A DNA stretch of 64,000 bases from a virus. This document shows, in pieces, positions 26,510 through 29,428 of the stretch. A model generated the notes under the pieces. That model worked only from the letters and a program-made list of their open reading frames with translations, was not told the DNA's origin and did no database searches. The stretch covers positions 1 to 64,000 of IMG/VR virus record IMGVR_UViG_3300027969_003137. The stretch is one strand, 5' to 3'. A program made the translations under genes and the position numbers. Numbering within the stretch: position 1 is the first letter of the stretch; the number at the start of each line of letters is the position of its first letter.

Positions 26510-27244
26510 GTGACAAAGGCCAAAGTAAAAAGAATATTTGTGTGCGGTCCTCCGGGAGGCATGTTCTCAACCATAGATCGATACCTGCGTGTGGGATTGC
26601 TTCAACATGTTGACAATTCTGATATAACGCCCCAGAGATTCTGGGGCGGACATATTGGTGCTTACTGGCACCCGGGCAACGAACCTAGTTGGGACTGGAT
26701 ATTAAACTTCGGCGAATATGATCGAGATCACATAATAGAAACACTAGACAGTGCATATTCAAACCCAATACCCGATGCCAGCGAAAAAGAATTCATCATA
26801 CGAACACACAAAAGCCATTTCTGGGCCTTGCATTATGACAAAATTATAGAGTTATTTCCCGAAGCAGACATAATTACAACAATTATAGAACCGCATGTTG
26901 CTTTTATATGGTGGGAACTATGTGGTGGCCACGACACTGTACATAATAATTACAAATTTTTTCATAGGAACTATGAGGCTATCTGGCAAGAAATAAATGT
27001 ACAAACTACGGCAACAAAGAAATTTGTTGAAAAATATAATATTACTCCTGTCTATTATGATATGGATTTTCTTACAAAAAATTATGGGACTATGTCTATA
27101 CATTTAAAAAGAATGGCAGCAGAAGGCATGCGCCATCCGGGCGGATACAATCATTTTTTAGGGGGAATGGCAGATGGTACAGGGTTGAGCGATAATGTGA
27201 AAGTTGCCTTTAAACCGGGATGTCCTAGACAGTTTAATCTATGA
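26510..27244 (+). CDS. Divergent sulfotransferase-like P-loop protein, copy B
   Basis: IFVCGPPGGMFS; 244 aa, same length as copy A. Confidence 0.45.
   Translation: MTKAKVKRIFVCGPPGGMFSTIDRYLRVGLLQHVDNSDITPQRFWGGHIGAYWHPGNEPSWDWILNFGEYDRDHIIETLDSAYSNPIPDASEKEFIIRTHKSHFWALHYDKIIELFPEADIITTIIEPHVAFIWWELCGGHDTVHNNYKFFHRNYEAIWQEINVQTTATKKFVEKYNITPVYYDMDFLTKNYGTMSIHLKRMAAEGMRHPGGYNHFLGGMADGTGLSDNVKVAFKPGCPRQFNL
26717..26841 (+). repeat. 125-bp perfect direct repeat, copy 2
   Basis: Identical to 22680-22804. Confidence 0.9.
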
Positions 27245-27819
27245 GAATGAATTATTGGTTAGGCGGTGGGTACACTGCCCATATTCCTCGTGAAATCTTA
27301 GAAAAAAATGATAATACTATCAATACACCTATATTACCAACAGTTAGTCATCATTCTAGATTTGAATGGATATACAAATATATAGGCGAAAAGAAATCTG
27401 TAATTCCTGCATTAAAATTGATGTTTTATACTACTGATAAAGAAGAGTATAATCTCGGTACACATAGTCTTAATCTAGATGACGGTGATTTCTTTTTTAA
27501 ATATTGTCTACCTCATACTCCGCCTGGATCTAGATTTTGGTTTTTTAAATTGAAAACTGTTAAGTTATATTTAGAAGAATACGAAGACTCTCTAAAGAAT
27601 GTCACAATGACCGATTGGATGGAAGTTAAACGATTAGAAAATCCAAAATTAGCAACTGCCTCTAGAGAGAGGATGGCTGAGCTTATGCTCGAAAGATTGG
27701 ACAAAGTTGCTGATAGATACGGTGCTGGTGAGTGGAAACCGTTTACTCCCAATGACTATTTCGATAATGGGGATCTAAGTGAAACTCCCTTGTTATATCG
27801 ATTGTATACAAAACCTTAA
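27241..27819 (+). CDS. Hypothetical protein, paralogue of 23204-23773
   Basis: Shared motifs; same position behind the P-loop paralogue. Confidence 0.75.
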   Translation: MRMNYWLGGGYTAHIPREILEKNDNTINTPILPTVSHHSRFEWIYKYIGEKKSVIPALKLMFYTTDKEEYNLGTHSLNLDDGDFFFKYCLPHTPPGSRFWFFKLKTVKLYLEEYEDSLKNVTMTDWMEVKRLENPKLATASRERMAELMLERLDKVADRYGAGEWKPFTPNDYFDNGDLSETPLLYRLYTKP

Positions 27820-27844
27820 AATTTTACATTTGGTAGTCTAGTAC

Positions 27845-27873
27845 TTGCTATTTAATTATAGACCAACTATACT
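27845..27873 (+). promoter_or_regulatory. Sigma70-type promoter of the tRNA-like RNA
   Basis: TTGCTA-17-TATACT, with -10 ending 6 nt before the acceptor stem. Confidence 0.6.
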
Positions 27874-27879
27874 ATACTT

Positions 27880-27990
27880 GTGGTCGTGAGTGGAATTGGC
27901 AGACCTCCCGCTTGGCCCATAGCCAAGAGTGGGGACGGGACAAAGTCGTAGACAGAGTCTTTGTAGGTTCGAAACCTACCGACCATACCA
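27880..27990 (+). ncRNA. Atypical 111-nt tRNA-like RNA (Leu-type body, extended anticodon and variable arms)
   Basis: GTGGTCG/CGACCAT-A-CCA acceptor, GGAATTGGCAGAC D-loop, GTAGG-TTCGAAA-CCTAC T-arm. Confidence 0.8.
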
Positions 27991-28053
27991 GTTTTAAGCC
28001 CCTACAAGCAAGGTGGCTTATAAGTATTAGAACATAACTATAAGGAAACAATT

Positions 28054-28245
28054 ATGTCAACAACAGTAGAACAACTAAAAGCAGACTTCGAAGCATTCTT
28101 AGCAGAGGACGCAAAATTCACAGCTGGCAACGGTGCAGCAGGAACTCGTGCTCGCAAAGCTCTTCAAGAAGTTGCCAAGGGTGTTAAAGCTCGTCGCAAC
28201 GAAATCACAGAAGAAAAGAACGCTCGCAAAGAAGCCAAGGCCTAA
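28054..28245 (+). CDS. Small histone H1-like (Hc1-type) basic protein
   Basis: GNGAAGTRARKAL...R.EI..K motif; strong SD. Confidence 0.7.
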   Translation: MSTTVEQLKADFEAFLAEDAKFTAGNGAAGTRARKALQEVAKGVKARRNEITEEKNARKEAKA

Positions 28246-28249
28246 TAAA

Positions 28250-28756
28250 ATGAGCGATCAAGATTCTATAGTAGATCTTGGTGAAGACAGTGCCACTGCC
28301 ACAATTGATTGGGGTGGCACTGATACCATTACTCTTAGCCCAGGTACGTACGGAGTTGATTTAAGTAGCATGAGTACTATCACCCTACCAAGTCCTAGTA
28401 CTACTTTTACTTACAGCGGAATGGGTGCAACTGTTGGTGGCATTACTACTATTAATAATATCAACAGCAATAGTCAATGGACTACAGGAACAACAGGTTA
28501 TGCATATAACAATACTCTTACTCCTAACACAGTCAATATCAGTACCACAGGTATTGAAATGGCTGCTGGGACCGATATTACTGTTGGTGGGCAGAGTTTA
28601 AAAGAGTTCATGAAGAAGATGGAACAGAGACTTGCTATACTAGTACCTGATCCTGCAAAACTTGAAAAGTTTGAAGCACTTAAGAAAGCCTATGAACATT
28701 ACAAGACCATGGAAAGTCTTTGTTTCGATGAACCAATTGAAGAACCCGAGCAGTAA
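28250..28756 (+). CDS. Hypothetical protein, Thr-rich N-terminus
   Basis: Start reassigned to MSDQDS at 28250; C-terminal ERLAIL.PD...LK.AYEHYK helix. Confidence 0.75.
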   Translation: MSDQDSIVDLGEDSATATIDWGGTDTITLSPGTYGVDLSSMSTITLPSPSTTFTYSGMGATVGGITTINNINSNSQWTTGTTGYAYNNTLTPNTVNISTTGIEMAAGTDITVGGQSLKEFMKKMEQRLAILVPDPAKLEKFEALKKAYEHYKTMESLCFDEPIEEPEQ

Positions 28757-28762
28757 ATACAA

Positions 28763-29428
28763 ATGAATGTTAAACTTTTATCATACAGCCAACCCGCAGT
28801 CGAATTTCGAGATATGGGCATCGAAGATGCGCAGGAACTCATTGCGTATTGCGCCCGTGTCAGCAATCCTGCCAATCAACTCAACACAGACACATCCGAA
28901 AAACTCATCAGATACTTGGTCAAGCACCAACACTGGAGCCCACTTGAAATGGTCTCCGCCTGTATCGAAATCACCACCACCCGAGATATTGCCCGACAGA
29001 TCCTTAGACACAGAAGTTTCTCATTCCAAGAGTTCAGTCAGCGATATGCTGACCCTACTAAAGACCTGTCGTTTGTATGTAGAGAAGCACGGCTCCAAGA
29101 TCCAAAAAACAGACAGAACAGCGTCCCAGTCGATGATCAACTCTTACAAAATGAATGGTATCGTGCTCAACAACGAGTTATCTATGCTGCCAAACGAGAA
29201 TACGAATGGGCCATTGCCAACGGCATAGCCAAGGAACAGGCTCGTGCTGTGCTGCCGGAAGGTCTTACAGAAAGTCGCCTGTATATGAATGGCACACTGC
29301 GTTCATGGGTACACTTCATTGAACTACGTTCGGCCAATGGCACACAACTAGAGCATCAGGAAGTTGCTAAGGCCTGTGCCAAAGTAATTGCAGAAATATT
29401 TCCATTGGCAGAAAGTCTTGTCAAATGA
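28763..29428 (+). CDS. thyX: Flavin-dependent thymidylate synthase
   Basis: HWSPLE, RQILRHRSFSFQEFSQRY, EQARAVLP. Confidence 0.95.
   Translation: MNVKLLSYSQPAVEFRDMGIEDAQELIAYCARVSNPANQLNTDTSEKLIRYLVKHQHWSPLEMVSACIEITTTRDIARQILRHRSFSFQEFSQRYADPTKDLSFVCREARLQDPKNRQNSVPVDDQLLQNEWYRAQQRVIYAAKREYEWAIANGIAKEQARAVLPEGLTESRLYMNGTLRSWVHFIELRSANGTQLEHQEVAKACAKVIAEIFPLAESLVK

What the first reader, a model, noticed from the sequence alone, without database searches (positions are those of the whole stretch)
27880..27990. Oversized 111-nt tRNA-like RNA with its own promoter and ambiguous anticodon
Seen: intact acceptor stem, A discriminator, CCA, T-arm and a Leu-type D-loop. The anticodon arm is doubled: CCCGC/GTGGG encloses TTGGC-CCATA-GCCAA-GA. 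The variable region of about 28 nt can form two hairpins (ACGGGAC-AAA-GTCGT and AGAC-AGA-GTCT). The apical loop centres on CAT, while deleting the 10 nt GGCCCATAGC restores a TT-CAA-GA Leu(CAA) loop. The promoter places +1 at about 27880. Inference: the intact ends suggest a functional non-decoding tRNA mimic (decoy for anticodon nucleases, aminoacyl donor for tRNA-dependent transferases) or a processed tRNA, rather than a pseudogene.
Basis: partly seen in the sequence, partly recalled or inferred. Interest (0 to 1): 0.72.

Follow-up and report, generated by a model that had tools for sequence, protein, structure and literature searches.

The report
Anticodon-less leucine tRNA mimic of phages
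This large uncultured lake phage, like well over a hundred relatives, keeps one strongly promoted gene for an RNA shaped like a leucine tRNA whose codon-reading arm is replaced by a freely varying closed hairpin, so it cannot translate, is probably still handled as a tRNA by the cell, and its job is unknown.

Summary
The 111-nt element at 27880-27990 is real. It belongs to a conserved RNA family: 194 copies and 112 distinct sequences in IMG/VR phage contigs, one strong copy per genome. No match was found in 50,697 GenBank phage records by BLAST, and none in 185,579 prokaryote genomes by two exact patterns.

Covariation supports a class II cloverleaf. It has a 7-bp acceptor stem, a 3-bp D stem, a T arm, and a two-tier 20-28-nt variable arm usually capped by an N-U-A triloop. 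A73, CCA, U8, A14, A15, G18G19, A20a, U48 and the T loop are essentially invariant. These match the published E. coli leucine identity set.

The anticodon position holds a single closed hairpin of 13-35 nt. Its caps are GNRA, UNCG, YYAUA or others, so there is no conserved anticodon. The "two variable hairpins" are one hairpin.

A near-consensus sigma-70 promoter starts transcription at base 1. No terminator follows, and an Hc1 histone-like gene starts 63 nt downstream.

I read it as a non-decoding, probably LeuRS-recognised tRNA mimic that acts off the ribosome. Its role is unknown. Other agents of this scan found the same family on other DNA.

The parts
27845..27873 (+). Sigma-70-type promoter (TTGCTA, 17-nt spacer, TATACT). 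Its -10 hexamer ends 6 nt before base 1 of the RNA.
   Evidence: for the window. In relatives, TTG at -35..-33 and TATA(A/C)T at -12..-7 occur in 65 unique flanks (T-12, A-11 and T-7 in 65 of 65) and in 61 further unique flanks (60-61 of 61).
27880..27990 (+). The tRNA-like RNA gene (111 nt).
   Evidence: Family model R1 scores 116 bits, E = 1.3e-26. Rfam tRNA scores 25.1 bits, below its threshold. It is a single copy in the 87.5-kb record.
27880..27886 (+). Acceptor stem, 5' strand. It pairs with 27980-27986.
   Evidence: 6 of 7 pairs show compensatory changes and 99.7% of cells are paired in 96 sequences.
27889..27906 (+). D arm. The stem is A-U, G-C, G-C with a bulged U. The 11-nt Leu-type loop carries A14, A15, G18G19, A20a and A21.
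   Evidence: Loop bases are invariant in 47 of 47 sequences collected without constraint on this arm. The third pair is G-C in 44 of them and is swapped to C-G in the 3 that lack the bulged U. The D loop resembles that of a true phage tRNA-Leu.
27907..27933 (+). Central arm in the anticodon position. It has CCC/GGG, a 1x3 internal loop, a 6-bp helix and a YYAUA pentaloop closed by C-G. There is no anticodon.
   Evidence: subgroup of 22 sequences. In the family this arm is always one hairpin of 13-35 nt, capped by GNRA (25), UNCG (10), YYAUA (14), CAU (7) and others.
27937..27961 (+). Extended variable arm. It has a 5-bp outer helix, a 3x3 internal loop, a 3-bp inner helix and a GUA triloop.
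   Evidence: Compensatory changes in 4 of 5 outer and 3 of 3 inner pairs. Length is 20-28 nt, and the triloop is N-U-A in 83 of 96 sequences.
27962..27962 (+). U48, partner of A15 (Levitt pair of the Leu type).
   Evidence: U in 49 of 49 sequences collected without constraint here. Its role in E. coli leucine identity is from the Leucine identity section of PMC9976931.
27963..27979 (+). T arm (5 bp with a TTCGAAA loop).
   Evidence: 100% paired, with 3 of 5 pairs showing compensatory changes. U54, U55, C56 and A58 are present in 49 of 49.
27987..27990 (+). Discriminator A73 and the encoded CCA.
   Evidence: A73 in 49 of 49 and CCA in 45-46 of 49 sequences collected without constraint here. 109 of 112 unique sequences end in ACCA.
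27991..28053 (+). A/U-rich spacer with a small hairpin and the Shine-Dalgarno site of the next gene. It has no terminator.
   Evidence: Spacer lengths are 6-87 nt, mostly 42-44. Only 2 of 128 unique downstream flanks have even a weak terminator-like site within 100 nt.
28054..28245 (+). Hc1 histone H1-like gene (63 aa), co-transcribed with the RNA.
   Evidence: PF07432, E = 5.6e-14. It lies downstream of the RNA in 122 of 130 loci. Among 80 ThyX loci, the RNA and Hc1 are both present in the same 13 and both absent from the other 67. Metatranscriptome contigs bridge the RNA and Hc1.

Best explanation
Shown. This is a single-copy phage gene for a class II, tRNA-Leu-type RNA. Its acceptor, D, T and variable arms are under purifying selection. 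Its anticodon arm has been replaced by an arbitrary closed hairpin, so it cannot read codons.

Shown. A near-consensus sigma-70 promoter is placed so that transcription begins at base 1. No RNase P step is therefore needed, and the 5' end should carry a triphosphate. The transcript runs on into the next gene (here Hc1).

Inferred, maturation. The encoded CCA end is freed by host RNases that cut in the A/U-rich spacer.

Inferred, recognition. The RNA folds into an L shape and is recognised, and probably leucylated, by the host LeuRS. It keeps what E. coli LeuRS needs (A73, A15:U48, G18G19, A20a, D/T-loop contacts) and varies only in what that enzyme ignores (the anticodon arm).

Inferred, function. 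It works in trans and off the ribosome. My favoured role is to occupy or divert a host factor that recognises the body and 3' end of class II tRNAs (long variable arm, elbow and CCA). One example would be a CCA-end-modifying defence toxin. The strictly kept variable arm would be the specific contact.
For: Family and structure. There are 194 copies and 112 unique sequences. In 96 sequences, 94.9% of cells are paired against 83.3% in shuffles, and 18 of 26 pairs show compensatory change. Slid controls pair in 32-54% of cells. The highest mutual-information pairs are the helix pairs, and no extra pairing emerges.

No anticodon. The central arm is one hairpin of 13-35 nt with unrelated caps. ARAGORN calls only 12 of 112 members, and as Pro, Arg, Gln, Ser or '???'.

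Leu type. The invariants are cross-validated on sets collected by the opposite end of the molecule. The E. coli rules come from the Leucine identity section of PMC9976931. In the T4 tRNA region, model R1 scores T4 tRNA-Leu best: 39.3 bits against 24.3 or less for the others.

Promoter and start.

Copy number. There is one strong match per genome in G000-G005, G007 and G009.

Independent gene. It stands alone, with a candidate hairpin and T-run (read by eye), in G007, and sits inside a tRNA array in G009. Downstream genes differ between subgroups.

Expression. Contigs of four metatranscriptomes cover 27879-28250. One 199-nt contig begins at 27882 and runs into Hc1.

Reliance on the host. There is no LeuRS-type anticodon-binding domain, L/F-transferase, CCA-adding enzyme, SmpB or Pth in five related genomes.

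Precedent for recognition through the variable arm and CCA end: MenT3 (abstract of PMC11162799).
Against: No charging, binding or phenotype data exist, and the host is unknown. The leucine rules are taken from E. coli.

The decoy role is pure inference. A substrate decoy is a weak counter to a catalytic toxin.

The RNA sits at the head of an operon with no terminator, which also fits a cis role.

Three related records lack a strong match: G006 (100% complete), G008 (82%) and G010 (58%). The RNA is therefore dispensable for some relatives.

The RNA-seq evidence consists of assembled contigs only. DNA carry-over cannot be excluded, and two contigs of X20 run on upstream.

Members were collected with sequence patterns, and alignment A2 was fitted to the model. 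Both inflate apparent conservation.
Confidence: 0.45

Rival explanations
1. Cis-acting leader. The tRNA shape at the very 5' end of the early operon protects the mRNA from 5'-end-dependent decay. It may also serve as a processing punctuation mark. On this reading the released RNA has no job of its own.
For: Transcription starts at base 1, inside the acceptor helix. No terminator follows in 126 of 128 unique flanks. An ORF starts within 130 nt in 182 of 194 copies. The RNA lies at a divergent promoter region at the head of a conserved gene block. Metatranscriptome contigs bridge the RNA and Hc1.
Against: Any stable hairpin would do this job. Yet A73, CCA, U48 and the D- and T-loop identity bases are invariant while stems change. 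The downstream gene is not constant. The G007 copy appears to stand alone, and the G009 copy lies in a tRNA array. There is only one copy per 280-400-kb genome.
Confidence: 0.2
2. Natural 'tRNA scaffold'. The tRNA body only gives stability and correct processing. The effector is the extended variable arm (N-U-A triloop on a two-tier helix), which binds a phage or host protein.
For: The variable arm is constrained in length (20-28 nt) and in motif (N-U-A in 83 of 96), while the central arm is free. That engineered tRNA scaffolds stabilise inserted RNAs in E. coli is recalled knowledge; of PMC3401473 I saw only the search listing.
Against: It does not explain the invariance of A73 and the Leu-type A15:U48 pair. 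No partner protein co-occurs in all subgroups apart from synteny neighbours.
Confidence: 0.15
3. Leucyl donor for a non-ribosomal aminoacyl transfer (L/F-transferase, Fem-type, cyclodipeptide synthase or similar), kept away from the ribosome by the loss of the anticodon.
For: The RNA keeps a Leu-type identity set and has no anticodon. A precedent is the non-proteinogenic tRNA-Gly of Staphylococcus (recalled, not checked here).
Against: PF03588 is absent from five related genomes. FemAB and CDPS families were not searched. No candidate transferase is linked to the RNA across subgroups. The strict variable-arm conservation is unexplained.
Confidence: 0.1
4. A decoding tRNA after all. Either it is tRNA-Ile/Met read through the CAU loop on an extended arm, or it is a tRNA-Leu(CAA) made by removing a 10-nt insert.
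For: In the window's subgroup the cap reads C-Y-(C/U)-A-U-A-G, which can be written as a 7-nt loop with a CAU or UAU anticodon. The Rfam tRNA model aligns it that way at 25.1 bits.
Against: The loop is closed by an invariant C-G pair, and position 33 is C in many members. The arm is about 4 bp too long. Other subgroups carry GNRA, UNCG and other caps on arms of 13-35 nt. The 'CAA' bases covary as stem partners. No RNA contig shows a spliced form; the two joints seen are sequence differences of relatives.
Confidence: 0.03
5. Decaying tRNA-Leu pseudogene, or an attP-type fragment of a host tRNA.
For: Standard tRNA finders reject it.
Against: Compensatory changes occur in all helices except the D stem (whose third pair shows a G-C/C-G swap), and the loops are invariant. 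A conserved strong promoter precedes it. Neither the 3' 28-mer nor the D-arm-plus-T-loop pattern occurs in 185,579 prokaryote genomes.
Confidence: 0.02

Closest known systems
Class II tRNA-Leu of bacteria and phages (within Rfam RF00005)
   Same: 7/5 acceptor/T geometry, A73-CCA, a 3-bp D stem with an 11-nt loop carrying A14, A15, G18G19 and A20a, U48, a long variable arm and a canonical T loop. The family model scores T4 tRNA-Leu highest among the T4 tRNAs.
   Different: There is no 7-nt anticodon loop and no conserved anticodon. The variable arm is much longer (20-28 nt, two tiers). There is no 5' leader. It falls below the Rfam threshold and is missed by ARAGORN.
Small stable tRNA-like RNAs of T-phages: T4 rnaC/rnaD (species 1 and 2) and T5 RNA1
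   Same: They are phage-encoded stable RNAs next to or among tRNA genes. They are annotated as of unknown function, and T5 RNA1 as 'tRNA-like' (record annotations). Part of T4 rnaC and of T5 RNA1 gives a weak tRNA-like match to the model, at 21.5 and 16 bits.
   Different: There is no specific homology: these scores are no better than those of unrelated tRNAs in the same regions. They differ in size (139, 119 and 144 nt). They are made within tRNA clusters that need processing, whereas this RNA starts at +1.
tRNA-like domain of tmRNA
   Same: It is a chargeable tRNA mimic without an anticodon that acts outside normal decoding.
   Different: There is no G3.U70 (the pair is G-C or A-U). A full D stem is present. 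There is no internal tag reading frame. ARAGORN finds no tmRNA, and five related genomes have no SmpB. The ORF lies 3' of the CCA end, which is topologically incompatible.
Allo-tRNAs and other non-canonical tRNAs (PMC5389517 seen in search listing; PMC7609411 passages)
   Same: They are odd cloverleaves with long variable arms from metagenomes, some in phages and some not usable in translation.
   Different: Allo-tRNAs have 8/4 or 9/3 acceptor/T branches and real anticodon loops. This RNA has a 7/5 branch and no anticodon loop.

Membership tests
tRNA-Leu (class II tRNA, Rfam RF00005) | 7-bp acceptor stem and 5-bp T stem with a canonical T loop | tested here: met
   Acceptor 99.7% and T stem 100% paired in 96 sequences. 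T-loop bases are invariant in 49 of 49.
tRNA-Leu (class II tRNA, Rfam RF00005) | Discriminator A73 and a CCA end | tested here: met
   A73 in 49 of 49 and CCA in 45-46 of 49 unconstrained sequences.
tRNA-Leu (class II tRNA, Rfam RF00005) | Leu-type core: A15:U48, G18G19, A20a and U8:A14 (E. coli and A. aeolicus identity elements, PMC9976931) | tested here: met
   All are present and invariant. The rules were read. Whether the unknown host's LeuRS uses them is not testable here.
tRNA-Leu (class II tRNA, Rfam RF00005) | 5-bp anticodon stem with a 7-nt loop, U33 and a Leu anticodon (NAG or YAA) | tested here: not met
   The central arm is a closed hairpin of 13-35 nt with GNRA, UNCG, YYAUA and other caps. 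In the window it is a pentaloop closed by C-G.
tRNA-Leu (class II tRNA, Rfam RF00005) | Reaches the curated Rfam gathering score or is found by ARAGORN | tested here: not met
   25.1 bits against 29. ARAGORN finds none in the window and 12 of 112 in the family, with inconsistent anticodons.
tRNA-Leu (class II tRNA, Rfam RF00005) | Aminoacylated with leucine and used in decoding | not testable with these tools
   Needs a charging assay and ribosome work.
Intron-containing tRNA | Conserved exon bases that restore a 7-nt anticodon loop after removal of the insert, plus a splicing motif or a spliced RNA form | tested here: not met
   No conserved flanking bases. The two joints in RNA contigs match sequence differences of relatives, not splicing.
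tmRNA | G3.U70, a reduced D arm, an internal tag ORF and an SmpB partner | tested here: not met
   Pair 3-70 is G-C in 62, A-U in 32 and G.U in 2 of 96. ARAGORN reports no tmRNA. SmpB is absent from 5 of 5 related genomes.

The most novel reading that the evidence does not exclude
Giant lake phages make an abundant, 5'-triphosphate, leucine-chargeable tRNA body without an anticodon. Its enlarged variable arm and CCA end trap or saturate a host immunity enzyme that disables class II tRNAs at the acceptor end (MenT/AbiE-type nucleotidyltransferases or similar). This would be the first RNA-only, tRNA-shaped anti-defence factor.
Probability: 0.15. Interest if true: 0.85.

Novelty: new variant of a known kind. 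Interest (0 to 1): 0.66.

Why it matters
Non-decoding tRNA look-alikes in phages (T4 species 1 and 2 RNAs, T5 RNA1) carry record annotations of 'unknown function'; that this has stood for decades is recalled.

This family gives a much cleaner case. It has hundreds of natural variants, and selection has kept exactly the part of a leucine tRNA that the synthetase and tRNA-handling enzymes see, while discarding the part the ribosome reads. That makes a direct test possible of what a cell does with a tRNA that cannot decode.

It also matters for annotation. Standard finders either miss these genes or call them tRNA-Arg, Pro or Gln by reading a tetraloop as an anticodon. This distorts counts of phage tRNA repertoires.

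Tried and rejected
Searches that found nothing.
- Megablast of 27000-29000 and blastn of the 111 nt against 50,697 phage records gave no match. A member of the other subgroup gave only 24-27-nt T-arm matches.
- The upstream 192-aa protein has no relatives in IMG/VR.
- An exact pattern for the window's central arm gave 0 hits.
- Two genome-contig scans (the 3' 28-mer, and the D arm plus T loop) gave 0 hits, so there is no host clue.

Structure attempts.
- RNAalifold on the plain MAFFT alignment recovered only the acceptor, T and outer variable helices, plus a spurious 3-bp helix. I therefore wrote the structure by hand and re-aligned with a covariance model.
- The search for extra pairings or a pseudoknot by mutual information gave only the helix pairs and subgroup correlations.
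- Pairing of the variable-arm loop or central loop with the downstream Shine-Dalgarno region was inspected by eye. There was no consistent co-variation, so I dropped it.

Rejected readings.
- An exclusive Hc1 partnership is rejected. The GTAGACG-type subgroup has 0 of 38 Hc1 genes downstream; most there are small proteins with signal-peptide-like N-termini, read by eye. Synechococcus phage S-SRM01 has an Hc1 homologue whose upstream CDS ends 38 nt away. I did not scan that locus with the RNA model.
- No specific homology to T4 rnaC/rnaD or T5 RNA1.

Partner genes.
- Absent from five relatives: PF03588, PF08264, PF01743, PF01668 and PF01195.
- FemAB, CDPS, class II synthetase cores and RNA ligases were not searched.
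- Radical SAM genes lie upstream in 102 of 144 loci but are not next to the RNA in this genome. I treat this as synteny.

RNA-seq. Parts of 27600-28500 without cover (upstream of 27879 and beyond 28250) are where relatives diverge. They say nothing about transcription.

Literature.
- Searches found no description of this family. One search served only for Hc1.
- PMC10690425 catalogued 8,495 candidate structured RNAs from IMG/VR intergenic regions (passages).
- Not run: structure prediction, protein homology searches and the metagenome-contig scan.
Full report
WHAT IS THERE

The window is the first 64 kb of an 87.5-kb IMG/VR virus record that CheckV rates 25% complete. Contigs that hold family members, or the neighbouring ThyX gene, reach 280-400 kb.

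At 27880-27990 the plus strand reads as a tRNA with several canonical parts:
- a 7-bp acceptor stem
- a 3-bp D stem with one bulged U
- an 11-nt Leu-type D loop
- a canonical T arm
- A73 and an encoded CCA

Standard tools do not accept it. ARAGORN reports only tRNA-Gly and tRNA-Arg near position 1100. Rfam at gathering thresholds reports the same two. The Rfam tRNA model reaches 25.1 bits against a cut-off of 29. The single-sequence fold is no better than shuffles, z = -1.38. By itself the element could have been dismissed.

HOMOLOGUES

The upstream gene has no relatives. The ThyX gene 770 nt downstream gave 80 related loci, and nhmmer found a full-length copy of the element in 13 of them.

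- a 28-nt degenerate pattern of the T arm and 3' acceptor strand
- a pattern of the D arm only

Together they give 194 copies and 112 distinct sequences of 93-119 nt, with 17 different acceptor 5' strands. Of the 112, 109 end in ACCA.

The family model R1 finds exactly one strong match (60-117 bits) in each of eight records: G000-G005, G007 and G009. It also finds weak matches of 20-39 bits and 75-92 nt, many clustered; I read them as the phages' ordinary tRNA genes but did not run a tRNA finder on them. G006 (complete), G008 and G010 have no strong match.

The family was not found outside uncultured phage contigs:
- no match in 50,697 GenBank phage records
- no match in 185,579 prokaryote genomes

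Runs that hold the stretch are labelled freshwater or lake metagenomes.

STRUCTURE

On 96 sequences aligned to the model, 94.9% of cells form standard pairs, against 83.3% in shuffles and 32-54% when partners are slid. Eighteen of 26 pairs show changes on both sides. By helix:

| Helix | Pairs with compensatory change |
|---|---|
| Acceptor | 6 of 7 |
| T stem | 3 of 5 |
| Outer variable-arm helix | 4 of 5 |
| Inner variable-arm helix | 3 of 3 |
| Base of the central arm | 2 of 3 |

The third D-stem pair looked broken in 91 of 96 sequences under my first model. It is explained by a bulged U: G-C in 44 of the 47 sequences of the unconstrained set, swapped to C-G in the 3 that lack the bulged base.

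The two collecting patterns constrain opposite ends of the molecule, so conservation can be cross-checked:
- In the 47 sequences found through the 3' end, U8, A14, A15, G18G19, A20a and A21 are invariant.
- In the 49 sequences found through the D arm or the model, U48, U54, U55, C56, A58 and A73 are invariant, and CCA is present in 45-46.

Mutual information finds no further pairing.

Caveats: the alignment is fitted to the model, and related sequences inflate the counts.

THE ANTICODON POSITION

In all 96 sequences the segment between the D arm and the variable arm folds into one closed hairpin of 13-35 nt. The caps are GNRA (25), UNCG (10), YYAUA (14), CAU (7) and some twenty others.

In the window's own subgroup of 22 sequences, the arm consists of:
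- CCC/GGG at the base
- a 1x3 internal loop
- a 6-bp helix that is 99.2% paired, with compensatory change in 5 of 6 pairs
- an invariant C-G pair closing a YYAUA pentaloop

The central 'CAT' is part of a subgroup-specific cap.

ARAGORN of 112 members, those with the shortest arms. It assigns them to Pro, Arg, Gln, Ser or '???' by reading the tetraloop as an anticodon. This is a codon-blind RNA.

THE VARIABLE ARM

In contrast to the central arm, the variable arm is constrained. It is 20-28 nt long (77 of 96 are 23 or 25 nt) and always a two-tier hairpin. The triloop is N-U-A in 83 of 96 and A-U-U in 9.

TRANSCRIPTION AND CONTEXT

A sigma-70-type promoter lies at 27845-27873. On its own this is weak evidence in an A/T-rich region (17 sites found, 5.4 expected). 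The geometry, however, is invariant across the family. TTG at -35..-33 and TATA(A/C)T at -12..-7 occur in 65 unique flanks, and again in the 61 unique flanks of members with other acceptor stems. Transcription should therefore start at base 1 of the acceptor stem.

The spacer after CCA is A/U-rich and mostly 42-44 nt (63 nt here). Only 2 of 128 unique flanks have even a weak terminator-like site.

The next gene depends on the subgroup:
- In the window's subgroup it is an Hc1 histone-like protein, present in 122 of 130 loci.
- Among the 80 ThyX loci, the RNA and Hc1 occur in the same 13 and in none of the other 67.
- In other subgroups it is usually a small protein of about 108 aa with a signal-peptide-like N-terminus, read by eye (0 of 38 Hc1).

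In G007 the RNA appears to stand alone, followed by a candidate hairpin and T-run that I read by eye. In G009 it lies in a tRNA array and lacks the encoded CCA.

Upstream, 102 of 144 non-redundant loci carry a divergently transcribed radical SAM gene. This genome instead has a variable island there.

Contigs from four metatranscriptome runs cover 27879-28250. One 199-nt contig starts at 27882 and runs into Hc1. Others bridge the RNA and Hc1 in relatives with a shorter spacer. These are assembled contigs, and DNA carry-over is not excluded.

HOW IT PROBABLY WORKS

The Leucine identity section of PMC9976931 states three things for E. coli:
- The A15:U48 Levitt pair, G18G19 and A20a are essential.
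- tRNA-Leu variants lacking the anticodon and variable arms remain chargeable as long as A73 and the D/T-loop contacts are intact.

The phage RNA keeps exactly this set and has lost exactly the dispensable arm. Model R1 also ranks T4 tRNA-Leu above the other T4 tRNAs.

The five related genomes searched encode no LeuRS-type anticodon-binding domain, CCA-adding enzyme, L/F-transferase, SmpB or peptidyl-tRNA hydrolase. Host enzymes must therefore handle the RNA.

I infer an abundant early RNA that folds as an L, is matured at its CCA end, and is recognised and probably charged by host LeuRS. It then acts away from the ribosome.

What it does there is not shown. The strict conservation of the enlarged variable arm points to a partner that reads class II tRNA bodies. 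MenT3, a toxin that blocks the CCA end and selects substrates through the long variable loop (abstract of PMC11162799), shows that such partners exist. This is a precedent, not evidence.

The rival readings remain open and are scored above: a cis-acting 5' stabiliser, a natural tRNA scaffold presenting the variable arm, and a leucyl donor. A decoding tRNA and a pseudogene are effectively excluded.

COMPARISON AND NOVELTY

The RNA works like, and derives from, a class II tRNA-Leu. It fails the defining anticodon-loop test, so it is not a tRNA-Leu.

The nearest analogues are the stable tRNA-like RNAs of T4 (rnaC, rnaD) and T5 (RNA1), annotated as of unknown function. The model shows no specific homology to them.

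Six literature searches found no description of the family. A 2023 catalogue of IMG/VR structured RNAs (PMC10690425, passages) may list it in supplements that I could not open.

Other follow-up agents of this scan reached the same reading on other genomes. I checked the shared claims independently here. This report adds:
- the tie to the Hc1 cassette in one subgroup
- the absence of terminators
- the bridging RNA contigs
- the contrast between a free central arm and a constrained variable arm
- the correction of the two anticodon readings

VERDICT

The feature is real, conserved and apparently undescribed. It is a new variant of the known kind 'non-decoding tRNA mimic', and its function is unknown.

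Noticed in passing
L278 (G009:C1:361780-361899, minus strand): A 120-nt tRNA-shaped gene inside a tRNA array of a 383-kb relative. It has normal acceptor, D and T arms but about 45 extra nt between the D arm and the T arm. It is not a member of this family (35.6 bits).
   Followed up: no
window 27820-27835 and relatives, -53..-47 from the RNA start: A conserved TATTTAA-like block lies upstream of the -35 hexamer in most members of the window's subgroup. It could be an UP element or a regulator site.
   Followed up: no
window 27991-28053: The spacer between CCA and the Hc1 start holds a hairpin with compensatory changes in the closest relatives. It also holds two conserved words (ATAAGTA and ACATAAC) before the Shine-Dalgarno site. 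These may be a processing or regulatory site.
   Followed up: partly
L003:609-1586 (minus) and equivalents in 102 of 144 loci: A 326-aa radical SAM gene is divergently transcribed about 63 nt upstream of the RNA. Further radical SAM genes, including a twitch-domain type, follow it. This block is not next to the RNA in the present genome.
   Followed up: partly
L219:5728-5943 (minus) and 34 of 51 loci of the other subgroup: A phage-encoded translation initiation factor IF-1 homologue (PF01176, E = 7e-20) lies about 1 kb downstream of the RNA.
   Followed up: no
window 28250-28756: The gene after Hc1 starts at the ATG at 28250 (168 aa), not at the GTG at 28133 listed mechanically. It has no Pfam family. 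It is present in 118 of 130 loci but is only about 46% identical.
   Followed up: partly
L102 7634-7715 and L134 4420-4501: A normal phage tRNA-Leu(CAA) lies about 1.6 kb upstream of the mimic in two relatives, so the two can coexist.
   Followed up: partly
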